Shown here: positions 10,471 through 15,633 of the stretch, one piece after another | Numbering within the stretch: the first letter of the stretch is position 1 | Layout of the letters: every line of letters begins with the position of its first letter | Source of the DNA: a virus | Lineage: Duplodnaviria > Heunggongvirae > Uroviricota > Caudoviricetes | Reading direction: 5' to 3' (one strand) | Virus record (IMG/VR): IMGVR_UViG_3300030438_000300 | DNA length: 30,806 nucleotides | The notes under the pieces: generated by a model | The model's input: the letters and a program-made list of their open reading frames with translations, nothing else | Database searches by the model: none | Told to the model about the DNA's origin: nothing | Translations under genes and position numbers: made by a program

Positions 10471-10555
10471 AGTCAGAGATAACAATCAACTAATACTGTT
10501 TTGTTGATTTTTGCTTGTAATTGGCGTTCTGGTCTGATTTTTGTGGAGTAAGTTG

Positions 10556-10939
10556 ATGCGTGATATTCAGATGGTTCTTGAACGTTGGGGAGCGTGGGCG
10601 GCTAATAATCATGAAGATGTGACCTGGTCGTCCATTGCCGCCGGTTTTAAGGGATTAATTCCTTCAAAAGTAAAATCTCGCCCGCAATGTTGTGACGATG
10701 ACGCGATGATCATTTGCGGGTGCATGGCCCGTCTGAAAAAGAACAACAGCGATTTGCACGATTTATTAGTAGATTATTATGTAGTCGGTATGACATTCAT
10801 GTCACTGGCAGGTAAGCATTGCTGCTCTGATGGTTATATCGGGAAAAGGTTACAGAAGGCTGAGGGTATAATTGAAGGGATGTTAATGGCATTAGATATC
10901 CGGTTAGAGATGGATATCGTTGTTAATAACTCTAATTAA
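10556..10939 (+). CDS. quuD: Late-gene antiterminator Q (phage 82/DLP12 QuuD type)
   Basis: 127-aa product [33 protein letters not shown]...[18 protein letters not shown]... matches QuuD as recalled. GGAG RBS 8 nt upstream of ATG 10556. The ORF track begins at the upstream TTG 10541. Confidence 0.9.
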
Positions 10940-11128: not shown

Positions 11129-12211
11129 TTAGAACTGATACACCAGACCTACAGCGACGATGTCGTCGGTATCAATACCAGCTGTTTTGGTAAACTTACT
11201 ATCGTCAATTAAGTTGATTTTGTAATCAACAAAAGTGGACATGTTTTTATTAAAGTAGTAAGTAGCACCGACATCGACATACTTGACTAAGTCTCGGTCA
11301 CCATGAACACCAAGGTCTTTACCTTTTGACTGAAGGTAAGCAACAGATGGTCGCAGACCGAAGTCAAACTGATATTGTGCTACTGCTTCAAAGTTTTGTG
11401 CTTTGTTTGCAATATGGTTATTACCAAAAACGGTCATATTCTGAGTTTCAGAATATGTGGTAGCCAGATAGATATTGTTCGCATCATATTTCAGGCCTGC
11501 AGCCCATACTTCCGCATTTTTGCCGGAGGCATTGAATTTGCTCTTACCATAGGCGACCTGACCGTCAGTGCGATCTGATTTAGCATAGGTTGCACCCACG
11601 CCGAATCCTTCATACTCATAAGTAGTGGAGAAACCGAAACCATCACCATTGGCTTCAGTTACGTCAGTGCGGTCATTTTTACCCTGATACTGAGCAGCAA
11701 AGTTCAGGCCATCGACCAGACCAAAGAAGTCGTTGTTACGATAGGTTGCAACACCAGTGGTGCGACCAGTCATGAACACATCTGTTTGGGTCCAGGTATC
11801 GCCACCGAATTCTGGCAGAACGTCAGTCCACGCACCGATGTCGTATGCTACACCGTAGTTACGGCCGTAATCGATTGAGCCGTAGTCACCGAATTTCAGG
11901 CCTGCAAATGCAAGACGGGTTTTGTCTTTGGAGGAACCTTGAGATTCAGCGCGGTTGCCTTTGAATTCATATTCCCACTGACCGAAACCAGTCAGTTGAT
12001 CGTTGATTTGGGTTTCACCTTTGAAGCCAAGACGGGCATAAGTAGTATCACCATCATCTGCATCATTAGAGGAGAAGTAGTGCTTAGCATTAACTTTCCC
12101 GTACAGATCCAGCTTGTTACTGTCTTTATTATAAATTTCAGCTGCCTGAGCAGACATCGCCATCAGTACTGATGCAGCTACAGCAGAAATTGCCACTGTT
12201 AATTTTTTCAT
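11129..12211 (-). CDS. nmpC: Outer membrane general porin (OmpC/NmpC family), apparently intact
   Basis: 360-aa product with signal peptide [30 protein letters not shown]..., beta-barrel porin-like sequence and C-terminal ...VGLVYQF. Lies between Q and the lysis genes on the opposite strand, as nmpC does in DLP12. Confidence 0.9.
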
Positions 12212-12640
12212 CGTGAGCCCTTTTTTTTGAACTATTATTAAAAAATGATGTCACTGCGCGATAAATATTCATCTAATCAATGTGATTATTTCAAGATGTA
12301 AGTTTTGGTTTCTCGTTTGATTTGTGAAGTAGATCTCTATTTTTATCTGAACTTTTTTCTATCGAATCCTATTCATGGCTCTTGGCTGAATAAAAATAAA
12401 TCTATTAGCCAATTTATATTAACGGCTATTATTTATAAGTGCTCTATAATTTGAAGGTTCAATTTAAACCAGCTAAAAATAACACTGGAAATTATTTGTT
12501 GGTTATTTGTTGAGATTTGCTTATGTATTTGTAGCGGTGTTTTCAATACTCGGTAGCATTCTCGCAAATATCATTTAGTGGTTTACGTACGTAAAAAATT
12601 GGTTATGCTGTTAAGAGTGGTTACTTCGTCACACAGCTTA

Positions 12641-12672
12641 AACCCGCCGTCGAGCGGGTTTTTCCATTTTTT
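12641..12672 (+). terminator. Strong plus-strand intrinsic terminator upstream of the lysis cassette (candidate tR')
   Basis: AACCCGCCGTCGAGCGGGTTTTTCCATTTTTT: GC-rich hairpin followed by a T-run. The reverse complement has no U-tract, so it acts on plus-strand transcripts only. Confidence 0.55.
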
Positions 12673-12800
12673 GAGTCTCGATATTAGCTGATAACCCAAT
12701 ACCTGAGTTATTCACTGACTCCGAGTCTGTTACGTTTCTGCTTTTTTGCGATACGTTGTATTCCCTCAATTTACACCCGCTTTGTCTGCGAGGTGGGGTT

Positions 12801-13016
12801 ATGAAATCCATGGATAAGTTAACAACGGGTGTCGCCTATGGCACCTCAGCAGGTAGTGCCGGGTACTGGTTTTTACAGCTGCTAGATAAAGTCACGCCCT
12901 CACAGTGGGCGGCAATTGGAGTGCTGGGTAGCCTGGTATTTGGCCTGCTGACGTACCTGACAAACCTTTATTTCAAGATTAAAGAAGACAAGCGTAAGGC
13001 TGCACGGGGAGAGTAA
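12801..13016 (+). CDS. essD: Holin (EssD-like, dual-start motif)
   Basis: 71-aa product [81 protein letters not shown]1-K-S-M4 dual-start arrangement. Confidence 0.85.
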
Positions 13017-13020
13017 TTCA

Positions 13021-13371
13021 ATGACTCAAAACTATGAACTGATTGTGAAAGGGATCCGCAATTTTGAGAATAAAGTTACGGTAACTTTAGCGTTACGGGA
13101 CAAAAAACGCTTTGACGGTGAAATTTTTGACCTGGACATCTCGCTGGACCGTGTTGAAGGTGCCGCGCTGGAGTTTTATGAGGCAGCAGCCAGAATGAGC
13201 ATCAGACAGGTCTTCCTGGATGTTGCTGCCGGGTTATGTGAAGGGGATGAGCAGTCGCCGGAAAAGCGCCCCGTAATTTTAGAGGCGCAGAATGTATGGA
13301 TAACCTACAAAGGAAAGCTACCGGGAAGAATTACTGGTTCTCTGAAGACTCCTCCGGAATCACAACCTTAA
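13021..13371 (+). CDS. Hypothetical protein embedded in the lysis cassette (between holin and endolysin)
   Basis: 116-aa ORF starting 4 nt after the holin stop; no motif recognised. By position it is analogous to ydfR (DUF1327) in Qin (recalled; unverified). Confidence 0.6.
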   Translation: MTQNYELIVKGIRNFENKVTVTLALRDKKRFDGEIFDLDISLDRVEGAALEFYEAAARMSIRQVFLDVAAGLCEGDEQSPEKRPVILEAQNVWITYKGKLPGRITGSLKTPPESQP

Positions 13372-13434
13372 GTCACTGACCGGAACAGATAAACCTGTCC
13401 GTGGGCAGAAACCGATAAATCCTGATAAATATCC

Positions 13435-13974
13435 ATGAACGCAAAAATCAGATACGGCCTGTCGGCTGCCGTTCTGGCACTGATTGCCGTCGGTGCGCCC
13501 GCGCCTGATATTCTCGACCAGTTTCTGGATGAAAAAGAAGGTAACCACACAACGACATACCGCGATGGGTCCGGCATCTGGACCATCTGTCGGGGTGCCA
13601 CGATAGTGGATGGAAAACCCGTTTTTCCCGGTATGAAACTGTCGAAGGAAAAATGCGACCAGGTCAACGCCATTGAGCGTGATAAGGCGCTGGCATGGGT
13701 GGAGCGCAATATTAAAGTACTACTGACCGAACCACAAAAAGCGGGTATAGCGTCATTCTGTCCCTATAACATTGGNNNNNNNNNNNNNNNNNNNNNNNNN
13801 NNNNNNNNNNNNNNNNNNNNNNNNNNNGGTGATCGTAAGGGCGCATGCGAGGCGATTCGCTGGTGGATAAAAGATGGTGGGCGCGATTGCCGCATACGTT
13901 CAAATAACTGCTATGGACAGGTTATTCGTCGTGACCAGGAAAGCGCATTAGCCTGTTGGGGGATAGAGCAGTGA
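13435..13974 (+). CDS. rrrD: SAR endolysin (lysozyme, GH24 family; RrrD-like), interrupted by an ambiguous-base run
   Basis: [56 protein letters not shown]... with N-terminal signal-anchor, matching DLP12 RrrD as recalled. Contains the 52-nt N run at 13776-13827; the frame is retained across it. Confidence 0.85.
13776..13827. other. Run of 52 ambiguous bases (N): sequencing/assembly gap or masking
   Basis: Literal n characters in the sequence, inside the endolysin ORF. Confidence 1.
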
Positions 13975-14432
13975 GCAGAGTCGCCGCGATTATTTATGCT
14001 TTGGTTATCTGCATCATCGTCTGCCTGTCGTGGGCGGTCAATCATTACCGTGATAACGCCATCGCCTACAAAGAACAGCGTGATAAAAAAGTCAGTGAGC
14101 TGAAGCAGTCGATCGCCACCATCGCTGACATGCAGCAGCGTCAGCGTGATGTTGCTGCACTCGATGCAAAGTACTCGAGAGAATTAGCCAATGCGAAAGC
14201 TGAAAATGAAACTCTGCGCGCTGATGTTGCCGCTGGTCGTCGTCGGTTGCACATCAAAGCAGTCTGTCAGTCAGTGCGTGAAGCCACCACCGCCTCCGGC
14301 GTGGATAATGCAACCAGCCTCCGACTGGCAGACACCGCTGAACGGGATTATTTCACCCTCAGAGAGAGGCTGATCACTATGCAAAAACAACTGGAAGGAA
14401 CCCAGAAGTATATTAATGAGCAGTGCAGATAG
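13971..14432 (+). CDS. rzpD: i-spanin Rz (RzpD-like)
   Basis: GTG start overlapping the endolysin stop (GTGA). Product [36 protein letters not shown]...QKYINEQCR with N-terminal TM and coiled-coil region. The ORF track begins at TTG 13956. Confidence 0.8.
14191..14373 (+). CDS. rzoD: o-spanin Rz1 (RzoD-like lipoprotein) embedded in the +1 frame of Rz
   Basis: 60-aa product [42 protein letters not shown]... with lipobox VVGC and a proline-rich segment, entirely inside Rz. Confidence 0.8.
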
Positions 14433-14463
14433 AGCTGCCCATATCGATGGGCAACTCATGCAA

Positions 14464-14760
14464 TTATTGTGAGCAATACACACGCGCTTCCAGTGGAGTA
14501 TAAATGCCTAAAGTAATAAAACCGAGAAATCCATTTACGAATGTTTGCTGGGTTTCTGTTTTAACAACATTTTCTGCGCCGCCACAAATTTTGGCTGCAT
14601 CAACAGTTTTCTCCTGTCCAATTCCCGAAACGAAGAAATGATGGGTGATGGTTTCCTTTGGTGTTACTGCTGTCGGTTTGTTTCCAACAGTAAACGTCTG
14701 TTGAGCACATCCTGTAATAAGCATTGCCAGAGCGGCAGAAAACAACATTTTTTTCATCTT
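14464..14760 (-). CDS. bor: Bor lipoprotein (serum-resistance lysogenic conversion factor)
   Basis: 98-aa product MKKMLFSAALAMLITGCAQQTF...GIYTPLEARVYCSQ with lipobox LITGC, matching lambda/DLP12 Bor as recalled. The ORF-track upstream extension was not used. Confidence 0.85.
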   Translation of the reverse strand, partial: KMKKMLFSAALAMLITGCAQQTFTVGNKPTAVTPKETITHHFFVSGIGQEKTVDAAKICGGAENVVKTETQQTFVNGFLGFITLGIYTPLEARVYCSQ

Positions 14761-15140
14761 ATTATCCTGCATTGTTAAAAACGGCAGAATCCTATGTGAC
14801 AACAATTAAACGATAGTTAAATGGATTGATGAAAATTAAAACTATATAGGTGGATGCTCAGCCTATCGGAGGTAGTCAGGATTTGAATGTCAGTCTGTTG
14901 TCGGCATTCTGGCAATGCAATTTGGATAAAGCGGGGATTAAAAAGATAGAGGCGAGCCGGTCAGGTAGAAATGAATCAGGCTCAAAGTGAAGCGGAAAAG
15001 GTCTGTGGCACAAGCTGATGCAGCCATAATTACAGCCTGATGATTTGTGGAATGAAACATGTTGAACCTCCTTAATTGATGTTATTCGAGTGATGAAGGC
15101 ATTCTGTCCTTCTATAGTGTCCAGTAAATCAAACAGGAAA

Positions 15141-15162: not shown

Positions 15163-15282
15163 CCTCTCCATTAGTGAGTTGTATTGATCACAACTCTACA
15201 AAGAATTCATTACTGGGTAGATGAAAATAGTTTCACTATGAATGGAGGAGGCTATGTCGGTGGCTTCTTCATTGGAGTACAT

Positions 15283-15633
15283 ATGCCCCCACGAATCCCA
15301 CGCGCCTGCCGTAAGCGTGGATGTGCAGGTACAACCACAGACAGTTCTGGTTACTGCGATAAACATCGTGGCGAAGGATGGGTACAGCATCAACGCGGAC
15401 TGAGCCGCCACCAGCGTGGCTATGGCTCGAAATGGGATGCCATACGTGCGCGCATACTGAAGCGTGATAATCATCTGTGTCAGAACTGCCTGCGCAATGG
15501 GAGAGCCGTTGAAGCCAGAACTGTGGACCACATCATTCCGAAAGCTCATGGTGGCACGGATGCAGACAGTAACCTGCAGAGTCTGTGCTGGCCCTGTCAT
15601 AAAGCAAAAACAGCGCGCGAACGCATCAATTGA
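15283..15633 (+). CDS. HNH endonuclease (terminase-associated, HK97 gp74-like)
   Basis: 116-aa product from MPPRIPRACRKRGCAGTTTDSSGYCDKHR... with HNH-type motifs DHIIPKAHGG and CWPCH. GGAG RBS. Immediately upstream of the terminase genes. Confidence 0.8.
   Translation: MPPRIPRACRKRGCAGTTTDSSGYCDKHRGEGWVQHQRGLSRHQRGYGSKWDAIRARILKRDNHLCQNCLRNGRAVEARTVDHIIPKAHGGTDADSNLQSLCWPCHKAKTARERIN

What the first reader, a model, noticed from the sequence alone, without database searches (positions are those of the whole stretch)
13021..13371. Unknown 116-aa gene inserted between holin and endolysin
The ORF starts 4 nt after the holin stop and is followed by the SAR endolysin, so it is co-transcribed inside the lysis cassette. 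It has no signal peptide, TM segment or motif I recognise. Genes at this position could modulate lysis timing or be unrelated cargo.
Basis: partly seen in the sequence, partly recalled or inferred. Interest (0 to 1): 0.45.

Follow-up and report, generated by a model that had tools for sequence, protein, structure and literature searches.

The report
YdfR-family gene in phage lysis cassette
The 116-codon gene between the holin and the endolysin is real, but it is the very common YdfR (DUF1327) accessory gene of E. coli lambdoid prophages, which many phages lyse without and whose K-12 copy was recently reported to bind RNase E.

Summary
A 116-aa ORF (13021-13371, +) starts 4 nt after the stop of a phage-21-type holin and ends 63 nt before an RrrQ-type endolysin, with no promoter or terminator in between.

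It is not an unknown gene. It matches Pfam DUF1327 (YdfR) at E=5e-42. Identical DNA is annotated 'YdfR family protein' in many E. coli chromosomes; 4314 of 5426 complete genomes carry a match.

Anatomy:
- An acidic N-domain (aa 1-75) with three beta strands and one helix (AF2 pLDDT 89.6).
- A conserved but poorly modelled module (aa 76-112).
- A 3' breakpoint after codon 112, where other alleles carry extra cargo.

It is dispensable for lysis. Only 101 of 438 phage records with this holin type have it. Phages cdtI and ev243 have an identical holin and lack it. A 933W-type Stx phage with the same holin and endolysin types lacks it too. Distant homologues consisting of the N-domain alone sit among tail genes in other Enterobacterales.

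The best functional lead is indirect. The Qin copy is 80% identical over aa 1-74. Its residues 1-72 gave two-hybrid signals with RNase E, and the full-length protein co-purifies with the RNase E catalytic half and with RNA (PMC13232886).

Verdict: a known family of late-operon cargo, probably an RNase E/RNA-decay modulator. Identity is near certain; the mechanism is only about 0.35 likely.

The parts
12801..13016 (+). Class II (phage 21 S-type) holin, 71 aa, with a dual-start-like MKSM N-terminus. Its last codons carry the ribosome-binding site used by the next gene.
   Evidence: Pfam Phage_holin_2_1, E=2e-35. PHROG holin families. Sequence read.
13006..13013 (+). Shine-Dalgarno-like GGGGAGAG inside the holin 3' end, 7 nt upstream of the ydfR ATG.
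   Evidence: Sequence. The same motif plus a 4-nt spacer precedes ydfR in the 8 divergent loci whose junctions were printed, and the 4-nt gap holds in all 90 ydfR loci with a holin match. It precedes the endolysin ATG in a cassette that lacks ydfR.
13021..13371 (+). ydfR-family (DUF1327) CDS, 116 aa plus stop.
   Evidence: The protein is 100% identical in induced E. coli phages such as vB_EcoS-640R1.
13021..13245 (+). N-domain (aa 1-75), acidic (pI 4.8). Fold: beta 5-14, beta 18-27, beta 34-43, helix 50-73. Invariant Y53-E54. This is the autonomous unit of the family and corresponds to the Qin YdfR fragment (aa 1-72) that gave two-hybrid signals with RNase E.
   Evidence: AF2 pLDDT 89.6, pTM 0.75. 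Alignments. 80% identity to Qin YdfR over aa 1-74. Stand-alone 72-76 aa homologues. PMC13232886. Charge.
13246..13356 (+). Module B (aa 76-112, DEQSPEKRPVILEAQNVWITYKGKLPGRITGSLKTPP). It is conserved among Escherichia alleles, absent from Qin YdfR, slightly basic and modelled with low confidence.
   Evidence: Alignment A1. pLDDT about 36. Pooled pN/pS 0.35. It also occurs without the N-domain in P0154.
13357..13434 (+). Short tail (ESQP, stop) plus a 63-nt spacer. This is a variable cargo junction. Relative to the 183-aa alleles, about 510 nt are missing here, between codon 112 and about 47 nt upstream of the endolysin ATG. There is no obvious SD before the endolysin ATG and no stable RNA structure.
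   Evidence: blastn against L006, L087 and L005. Tail variants. The 63-nt spacer occurs in 71 loci. RNA fold z=+0.66. Sequence.
13435..13974 (+). RrrQ/933W-type endolysin, interrupted by a run of N at 13767-13827.
   Evidence: Pfam Phage_lysozyme. 90% identity to Qin RrrQ and 85% to the phage 75/02 lysozyme over the first 110 aa.
13956..14432 (+). Rz spanin with embedded Rz1 (14191-14373). This is the end of the lysis cassette.
   Evidence: Pfam Phage_lysis, E=7e-48. Pfam Rz1, E=3e-20.

Best explanation
The ORF is a YdfR-family (DUF1327) gene, an optional accessory ('moron-like') gene of Escherichia/Shigella lambdoid phages that sits at the holin-endolysin joint.

Shown here:
- It uses the ribosome-binding site embedded in the holin's last codons and lies in the Q-dependent late operon. 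It should therefore be made late in the lytic cycle together with the lysis proteins.
- It is a soluble protein with no TM segment or signal peptide (presumably cytoplasmic) and a compact, acidic N-domain of three strands and one helix, followed by an exchangeable tail.
- Lysis cassettes work without it.

Inferred by homology to the Qin copy (80% identical N-domain):
- The N-domain docks on the catalytic N-terminal half of RNase E, and more weakly on RNase G.
- The protein, through its basic tail or indirectly, associates with RNA.

My proposed mechanism, not shown: late in infection it modulates RNase E-dependent RNA decay. This could mean protecting the long late transcript or redirecting cleavage. 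The variable C-terminal modules would change specificity or partners. It does not take part in membrane or cell-wall disruption.
For: Identity:
- Pfam DUF1327 at 142 bits, PHROG 2091/406, RefSeq annotation 'YdfR family protein'.

Expression context:
- A 4-nt gap and an SD inside the holin gene; the gap is invariant in all 90 ydfR loci with a holin match, although holin alleles vary from 76 to 100% identity.
- No internal promoter or terminator.
- Q antiterminator upstream.

Soluble and acidic:
-.

Fold:
-.

Autonomy of the N-domain:
- Stand-alone 72-76 aa homologues.
- Phage Evi carries a 72-aa version at the same joint.

Dispensable for lysis:
- 101 versus 438 phage records.
- cdtI, ev243 and phage 75/02 lack it.

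Not tied to lysis:
- Distant homologues lie between tail genes L/K/I or upstream of a different holin type.

RNase E link, from PMC13232886:
- Qin YdfR aa 1-72 was isolated three times in a two-hybrid screen.
- Strep-YdfR co-purifies Rne1-598-FLAG.
- The eluate contains DNase-resistant nucleic acid.
- The window protein is 80% identical and 95% similar to Qin YdfR over aa 1-74.

Precedent:
- T7 gp0.7, T4 Srd and phiKZ Dip are phage proteins that target RNase E (PMC4980113).
Against: - The RNase E data concern the Qin paralogue, not this allele, and the tails differ completely after residue 74.
- In that paper full-length YdfR gave two-hybrid signals only with Rne1-597. Overexpression changed few transcripts and did not affect growth. 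The authors could not exclude that a contaminant retained the RNA. Because RNA was present, co-purification of RNase E could be RNA-bridged.
- The acidic N-domain is not what one expects of a direct RNA binder.
- In Escherichia the gene always follows an S21-type holin, even where the downstream lysis genes differ. That could mean a holin-related role.
Confidence: 0.4

Rival explanations
1. It is a cytoplasmic lysis-timing regulator. It would bind the charged cytoplasmic C-terminal tail of the S21-type pinholin and delay or sharpen triggering, as T4 RIII does for holin T (RIII role from my own knowledge).
For: - Every ydfR copy in the fetched Escherichia loci with a readable upstream flank (90 loci) starts 4 nt after an S21-type holin.
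- The pair stays together even where the downstream lysis genes are a different set, two other holins plus an M15 peptidase in phiSTEC1575-Stx2k.
- It is made from the same message in roughly holin-like amounts (inference).
- The Keio ydfR mutant is listed among envelope-leaky (CPRG+) hits.
- T4 RIII shows that one small cytoplasmic protein can touch both lysis inhibition and RNA metabolism (PMC9409239, abstract).
Against: - 337 of 438 phage records with this holin type lack it, including phages with an identical holin.
- S21-type holins already encode their own antiholin through dual starts (established knowledge; the MKSM start is seen).
- Distant homologues sit in tail modules, far from any holin.
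- The Keio phenotype may be a polar effect of the kan cassette on the downstream endolysin gene rrrQ (my inference).
- The only direct experimental partner reported is RNase E.
Confidence: 0.15
2. It is generic late-operon cargo whose selected function is unrelated to both lysis and RNase E. Examples would be an inhibitor of a host defence or another host enzyme, or a function that benefits the lysogen. On this reading the RNase E contact is incidental or an overexpression artefact.
For: - The C-terminal modules are extremely mosaic and the insertion hot spot often carries extra opposite-strand ORFs.
- The distribution is narrow and patchy: 89 clusters among 1.84 billion representatives, and only Escherichia/Shigella among 185,579 species genomes for the close family.
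- Overexpression of Qin YdfR barely changes the transcriptome.
Against: - There is no PADLOC match. PADLOC models defence systems, not anti-defence proteins, so this is weak evidence.
- No own promoter is detected, so expression from the repressed prophage is not expected.
- The RNase E interaction was found independently by a library screen and by co-purification.
Confidence: 0.25
3. It is a decaying or functionless remnant that is merely carried along between two selected genes.
For: - The 116-aa form looks like a deletion derivative of longer alleles.
- Many frameshifted or truncated variants exist in databases.
- The gene is dispensable.
Against: - dN/dS is 0.2-0.45 in the N-domain and pN/pS is 0.35 in module B.
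- The start, SD and frame are conserved in the 90 fetched ydfR loci with a holin match.
- The fold is predicted with confidence.
- The identical protein occurs in inducible phages.
Confidence: 0.05

Closest known systems
YdfR of the E. coli K-12 cryptic prophage Qin (b1555, P76160; Pfam PF07041 DUF1327)
   Same: Same family and same position: 4 nt after the S21-type holin essQ and upstream of the RrrQ-type endolysin. The N-domain is 80% identical over aa 1-74. That region contains the fragment (aa 1-72) that gave two-hybrid signals with RNase E.
   Different: The tails are unrelated after residue 74: Qin has a 29-aa His/Lys-rich tail, the window has module B plus ESQP. Qin ydfR overlaps rrrQ by 4 nt (ATGA coupling), whereas here a 63-nt spacer without a clear SD precedes the endolysin.
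Long YdfR alleles of Stx and other lambdoid phages (176/183 aa; 263-268 aa in Stx1_499 and Stx2 phage 86; the unannotated ORF between S and R of H-19B)
   Same: The same N-domain and module B at the same joint.
   Different: They carry extra C-terminal modules, and often an opposite-strand ORF before the endolysin. The window allele lacks about 510 nt of this cargo. No Pfam domain is recognisable in the extensions.
Phage-encoded RNase E effectors: T4 Srd, T7 gp0.7, phiKZ Dip
   Same: They are phage proteins that act on the host RNase E/degradosome. Srd, like YdfR, contacts the catalytic N-terminal half (PMC4980113; PMC13232886).
T4 RIII (cytoplasmic antiholin)
   Same: A small soluble cytoplasmic phage protein associated with lysis control. 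RIII has also been linked to RNA metabolism through ribosomal protein S1 and RegB (PMC9409239).
   Different: No sequence or fold relationship was tested or seen. RIII acts on a different holin class. No holin binding is known for YdfR.

Membership tests
DUF1327 / YdfR family (Pfam PF07041) | Matches the family HMM above the curated gathering score | tested here: met
   142.4 bits against a cut-off of 25, E=5.3e-42, profile positions 1-92 of 93.
DUF1327 / YdfR family (Pfam PF07041) | Conserved N-domain of about 72 aa (beta-beta-beta-alpha) with invariant Y-E at the start of the helix | tested here: met
   Y53 and E54 are invariant across 29-30 sequences down to 24% identity. AF2 pLDDT 89.6.
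DUF1327 / YdfR family (Pfam PF07041) | Escherichia-type position: start 4 nt after the stop of an S21-type holin | tested here: met
   The window and 89 other loci all have a gap of exactly 4 nt; Qin has the same arrangement in its annotation.
DUF1327 / YdfR family (Pfam PF07041) | Binding to the RNase E N-terminal catalytic half (reported for Qin YdfR only) | not testable with these tools
   Experimental property from PMC13232886. No multimer prediction or wet-lab assay is available here.
Holin/antiholin or membrane lysis regulators | Transmembrane segment or signal/SAR sequence | tested here: not met
   Maximum Kyte-Doolittle 19-residue mean is 1.03; the protein is acidic and soluble. There are no holin-family Pfam or PHROG hits for this ORF.
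Holin/antiholin or membrane lysis regulators | Constant component of the cassette it regulates | tested here: not met
   Present in 101 of 438 phage records with this holin type. Absent from cdtI and ev243 (identical holin) and from phage 75/02.
Holin/antiholin or membrane lysis regulators | Physical interaction with the holin, or an effect on lysis time | not testable with these tools
   This needs a deletion with a lysis curve, or binding assays.
Double-stranded RNA-binding domain (dsRBD) | alpha-beta-beta-beta-alpha fold with a basic RNA-binding face | tested here: not met
Known phage RNase E effectors (phiKZ Dip) | Structural homology to Dip | tested here: not met
Known anti-phage defence proteins (PADLOC) | Match to a defence-system HMM | tested here: not met
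   No hit at E<=1 for the window protein or for three relatives.

The most novel reading that the evidence does not exclude
The DUF1327 N-domain is a docking module of temperate phages for the catalytic half of RNase E (and RNase G). It would be expressed with the lysis genes, and its exchangeable C-terminal modules (module B, the coiled-coil-like C modules, the Qin tail) would act as adaptors. These adaptors would bring particular RNAs or proteins to RNase E or shield them from it, as RapZ does, so tuning late-transcript stability and hence burst size or lysis timing. If so, a fourth, unrelated kind of phage RNase E effector would be present in about 80% of E. coli genomes.
Probability: 0.25. 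Interest if true: 0.6.

Novelty: already known. Interest (0 to 1): 0.3.

Why it matters
The gene itself is ordinary. It is one of the commonest prophage ORFs in E. coli and already has a family name. It matters modestly because its function is unsolved and because a 2026 screen links the K-12 copy to RNase E.

This analysis adds context that the screen paper did not discuss:
- The RNase E-interacting fragment corresponds to a separately predicted, separately occurring domain.
- That domain is expressed from the lysis or late operon of active phages, including Stx phages.
- It is dispensable for lysis.
- It is fused to shuffling C-terminal modules.

This makes 'do temperate lambdoid phages manipulate RNase E late in infection?' a testable question with simple deletions.

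Tried and rejected
- NCBIfam: no model matches.
- PDB sequence search with the family profile: only chance hits, E about 0.8.
- Whole-protein AF2 model: residues 71-116 have pLDDT below 50, so module B has no usable structure.
- PADLOC: no hit.
- Pfam on the long-allele extensions: nothing informative.
- Rfam on 12200-14900: nothing above noise.
- RNA structure in the 63-nt spacer: none, z=+0.66.
- Literature: 'DUF1327' is found in one genomics paper only. The 'essQ/rrrQ' search returned almost only unrelated hits and was not followed up. A sigma-S run-off array lists a CFT073 ydfR probe, without follow-up.
- I considered the Keio ydfR envelope phenotype as support for a lysis role. I discounted it because a polar effect on the downstream endolysin is as likely; this is my inference.

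Full report

Yes. The ORF listing gives an ATG-initiated ORF at 13021..13371 (+) of 116 aa. The upstream ORF, read from its ATG at 12801, is a 71-aa class II holin (Pfam Phage_holin_2_1, 'Bacteriophage P21 holin S', E=2e-35). It ends at 13016, so 4 nt (ttca) separate its stop from the ATG at 13021.

The last holin codons spell GGGGAGAG (13006-13013), a strong Shine-Dalgarno-like motif 7 nt before the ATG. Downstream lie a 63-nt spacer and then a Phage_lysozyme gene (13435..13974), Rz (13956..14432) with embedded Rz1, and Bor on the opposite strand. RusA, a Q antiterminator and an opposite-strand porin lie upstream.

The consensus scan finds no promoter-like or terminator-like site on the + strand between the holin and the end of Rz. 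The only + strand terminator-like hairpin is upstream of the holin, at 12640-12661. Co-transcription with the lysis genes in the Q-dependent late operon is therefore the natural reading. This is an inference from sequence.

The product has no hydrophobic stretch of TM grade: the maximum Kyte-Doolittle 19-residue mean is 1.03.

**2. What is it?**

It is not an unknown gene. It matches Pfam PF07041 (DUF1327) at 142 bits (cut-off 25, E=5e-42) and PHROGs 2091, 406 and 1085, all of unknown function. NCBIfam has no model.

The 351-nt DNA is 100% identical to genes annotated 'YdfR family protein' in many E. coli chromosomes. Of 5426 complete E. coli genomes, 4314 have a match and 1903 have a match covering at least 80% of the query. 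The identical protein is encoded by induced E. coli phages such as vB_EcoS-640R1, -716R1 and -813R8.

It evolves as a coding sequence. N-domain dN/dS is 0.2-0.45 between divergent alleles, and pooled pN/pS of residues 76-112 is 0.35.

**3. Anatomy**

Alignment of 32 family members and inspection of 120 show three parts.

- **N-domain, aa 1-75.**
  - It is present in every member.
  - With distant homologues in the alignment, AlphaFold2 gives pLDDT 89.6 and pTM 0.75. The fold is beta 5-14, beta 18-27, beta 34-43 and helix 50-73.
  - Y53-E54 are invariant down to 24% identity, and Y5 is nearly invariant.
  - The domain is acidic, pI 4.8.
- **Module B, aa 76-112** (…SPEKRPVILEAQNVWITYKGKLPGRITGSLKTPP).
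  - It is nearly invariant among Escherichia alleles but absent from Qin YdfR.
  - It is modelled with pLDDT of about 36.
  - In one protein (P0154) it occurs without the N-domain, so it is a separable module.
- **Breakpoint after 'KTPP'.**
  - Alleles end here in ESQP*, KW*, EF* or LA*, or continue into 60-150 further residues (176, 183 and 263-268 aa forms).
  - blastn shows the window form equals the 183-aa form minus about 510 nt, lost between codon 112 and about 47 nt upstream of the endolysin ATG.
  - The extensions contain no recognisable Pfam domain.
  - The spacer has no significant RNA structure, and no Rfam family matches the region.

**4. Distribution and context**

The family is very narrow. 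A profile search of 1.84 billion representative proteins finds 89 clusters. A scan of one genome for each of 185,579 species finds the close family only in Escherichia coli, E. ruysiae, E. albertii and Shigella. Two further MAG contigs, labelled Veillonella and Bacillota, carry the Qin-type arrangement and are probably contamination; that is my reading.

In the window and 89 other loci with a readable holin match, ydfR starts exactly 4 nt after the stop of an S21-type holin, although the holin alleles range from 76 to 100% identity. The motif …GG(G)GAGAGTA(A/G)nnnnATG is conserved in the eight divergent junctions printed.

The gene is nevertheless optional.

- tblastn finds the holin type in 438 phage records and YdfR in 101.
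- Phages cdtI and ev243 have a holin 100% identical to the window's. It abuts an R21-type endolysin with no intervening gene.
- Shigella phage 75/02 Stx (933W-like) has the same holin type (82% identity) and the same endolysin type (85% identity over 110 aa). Its endolysin ATG sits at the very position, stop plus 4 nt behind the same SD, that ydfR occupies here.

So ydfR is an insertion at the S/R joint that takes over the SD embedded in S. In the window the endolysin is left behind a 63-nt spacer with no evident SD. In Qin the two genes overlap by 4 nt instead.

The joint is a cargo hot spot. It holds a 72-aa N-domain-only gene in phage Evi, 169-268-aa fusions elsewhere, and frequent opposite-strand ORFs. 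In phiSTEC1575-Stx2k the S21 holin-ydfR pair is followed by a different lysis set, two holins and an M15 peptidase.

The distant relatives are 72-76-aa proteins consisting of the N-domain alone. Sources name them from Yersinia mollaretii, Pantoea and Enterobacter cloacae. They are not in lysis cassettes. They sit between lambda-like tail genes: after L and before K in L096 and L097, before L in L101 and L102, and after an I-like gene in L094. One tandem-duplicated 176-aa form lies between Q and an HP1-type holin. The common denominator is the late operon of lambdoid phages, not lysis.

**5. Function**

One experimental study bears on it. Göpel et al., RNA Biol 2026 (PMC13232886) report the following.

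- They recovered the first 72 codons of Qin ydfR three times in a bacterial two-hybrid screen with RNase G as bait.
- The fragment gives signals with RNase G, full-length RNase E and Rne1-597, strongest with RNase E.
- Full-length YdfR signals only with Rne1-597.
- Strep-YdfR co-purifies chromosomally encoded Rne1-598-FLAG.
[quoted passage not shown] The authors note that a contaminant could be responsible.
- Overexpression did not affect growth and changed few transcripts.

The window protein is 80% identical and 95% similar to Qin YdfR over residues 1-74 and unrelated afterwards. The interacting fragment therefore coincides with the domain defined here by structure prediction and by stand-alone homologues.

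I infer that the window protein has the same docking activity. That step is homology-based and not shown.

*Most likely mechanism (probability about 0.35-0.4).* A soluble protein made late from the lysis message docks its acidic N-domain on the catalytic half of RNase E and modulates RNA decay. This could stabilise the long late transcript or redirect cleavage. The exchangeable tails would provide RNA or partner specificity. Phage interference with RNase E has precedent in T7 gp0.7, T4 Srd (which also binds the N-terminal half) and phiKZ Dip (PMC4980113).

- *Shown:* identity, position, expression signals, solubility, domain structure (predicted), dispensability, non-lysis contexts of relatives.
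- *Inferred:* RNase E binding by this allele.
- *Speculative:* the direction and targets of the effect.

*Rivals.*

- **(a) Cytoplasmic lysis-timing regulator** acting on the holin tail, like T4 RIII (about 0.15). The absolute S21-ydfR linkage in Escherichia favours it, and so does the listing of the Keio ydfR mutant among envelope-leaky strains. Against it stand the gene's optional nature, the holin's own dual-start antiholin, the tail-cluster homologues, and a probable polar explanation for the Keio phenotype.
- **(b) Cargo with another target**, such as an inhibitor of a different host protein (about 0.25).
- **(c) Functionless remnant** (about 0.05), contradicted by purifying selection and the conserved translation signals.

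**6. Comparison and novelty**

The gene is a member of the YdfR/DUF1327 family by every testable criterion. It is not a member of the holin/antiholin, dsRBD, Dip or known defence families.

The finding is 'already known' as an entity. What is still open is the function.

The modest new points here are as follows.

- The interacting fragment is an autonomous domain.
- The S/R joint is an insertion hot spot, at which ydfR uses the SD that lies in the holin's last codons and that serves the endolysin gene in cassettes lacking ydfR.
- The gene is dispensable for lysis.
- Its distant relatives are tail-cluster morons.

Interest is 0.3.

Noticed in passing
window 13767-13827: A run of 61 N interrupts the endolysin gene. 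The translation shows X residues there. It looks like masked or unresolved sequence rather than biology.
   Followed up: no
window 11129-12211 (- strand): A 360-aa OmpC/NmpC-type porin gene (Pfam Porin_1, E=2e-151) lies on the opposite strand between the Q antiterminator (10541-10939) and the holin. This is a classic lambdoid moron; phage ev243 has the same arrangement.
   Followed up: partly
window 12640-12661 (+ strand): A terminator-like hairpin (AAACCCGC…GCGGGTTT followed by a T run) lies about 140 nt upstream of the holin start. It could be the late-operon terminator that Q overrides, or the end of an upstream moron.
   Followed up: no
window 13357-13434, compared with L006, L087 and L005: The stretch between YdfR codon 112 and about 47-75 nt before the endolysin ATG is a variable cargo site. 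Other alleles carry 300-800 extra nt here, encoding C-terminal extensions and often an opposite-strand ORF, such as DUF1823 in PhiR12 and hypothetical proteins in phage 86 and Evi.
   Followed up: partly
P0154 (112 aa): Module B (EKRPIILEAQRVWITYKGKLPGRITGSLKTPPKW) occurs at the C-terminus of a protein whose N-terminus resembles the coiled-coil 'C module' and which lacks the DUF1327 N-domain. The modules therefore shuffle independently.
   Followed up: no
L106 (phage phiSTEC1575-Stx2k) 2281-4299: An S21-type holin plus ydfR is followed by two further holin genes and an M15 metallopeptidase instead of a lysozyme. The phage thus carries two holin systems, and the first may be a relic.
   Followed up: no
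L099 5001-5531 (P0187) and P0191: These proteins of 170-176 aa contain two tandem, divergent DUF1327 N-domains. P0187 is encoded between Q and an HP1-type holin, next to ParE/HicAB toxin-antitoxin genes.
   Followed up: no
L009 and L011 (genome contigs): Contigs labelled as Veillonella parvula and Bacillota MAGs carry the Qin-type holin-ydfR arrangement, with 94% holin identity to the window's holin. This most likely reflects E. coli contamination of the bins.
   Followed up: no
window 15184-15633 (+): An HNH endonuclease gene (Pfam HNH, E=3e-16) lies just upstream of the terminase genes, as is typical of HK97-like packaging modules.
   Followed up: no
L004 (phage H-19B, AF034975.3) 2501-2845: The classic H-19B record leaves the 114-aa YdfR homologue between S and R unannotated.
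   Followed up: partly
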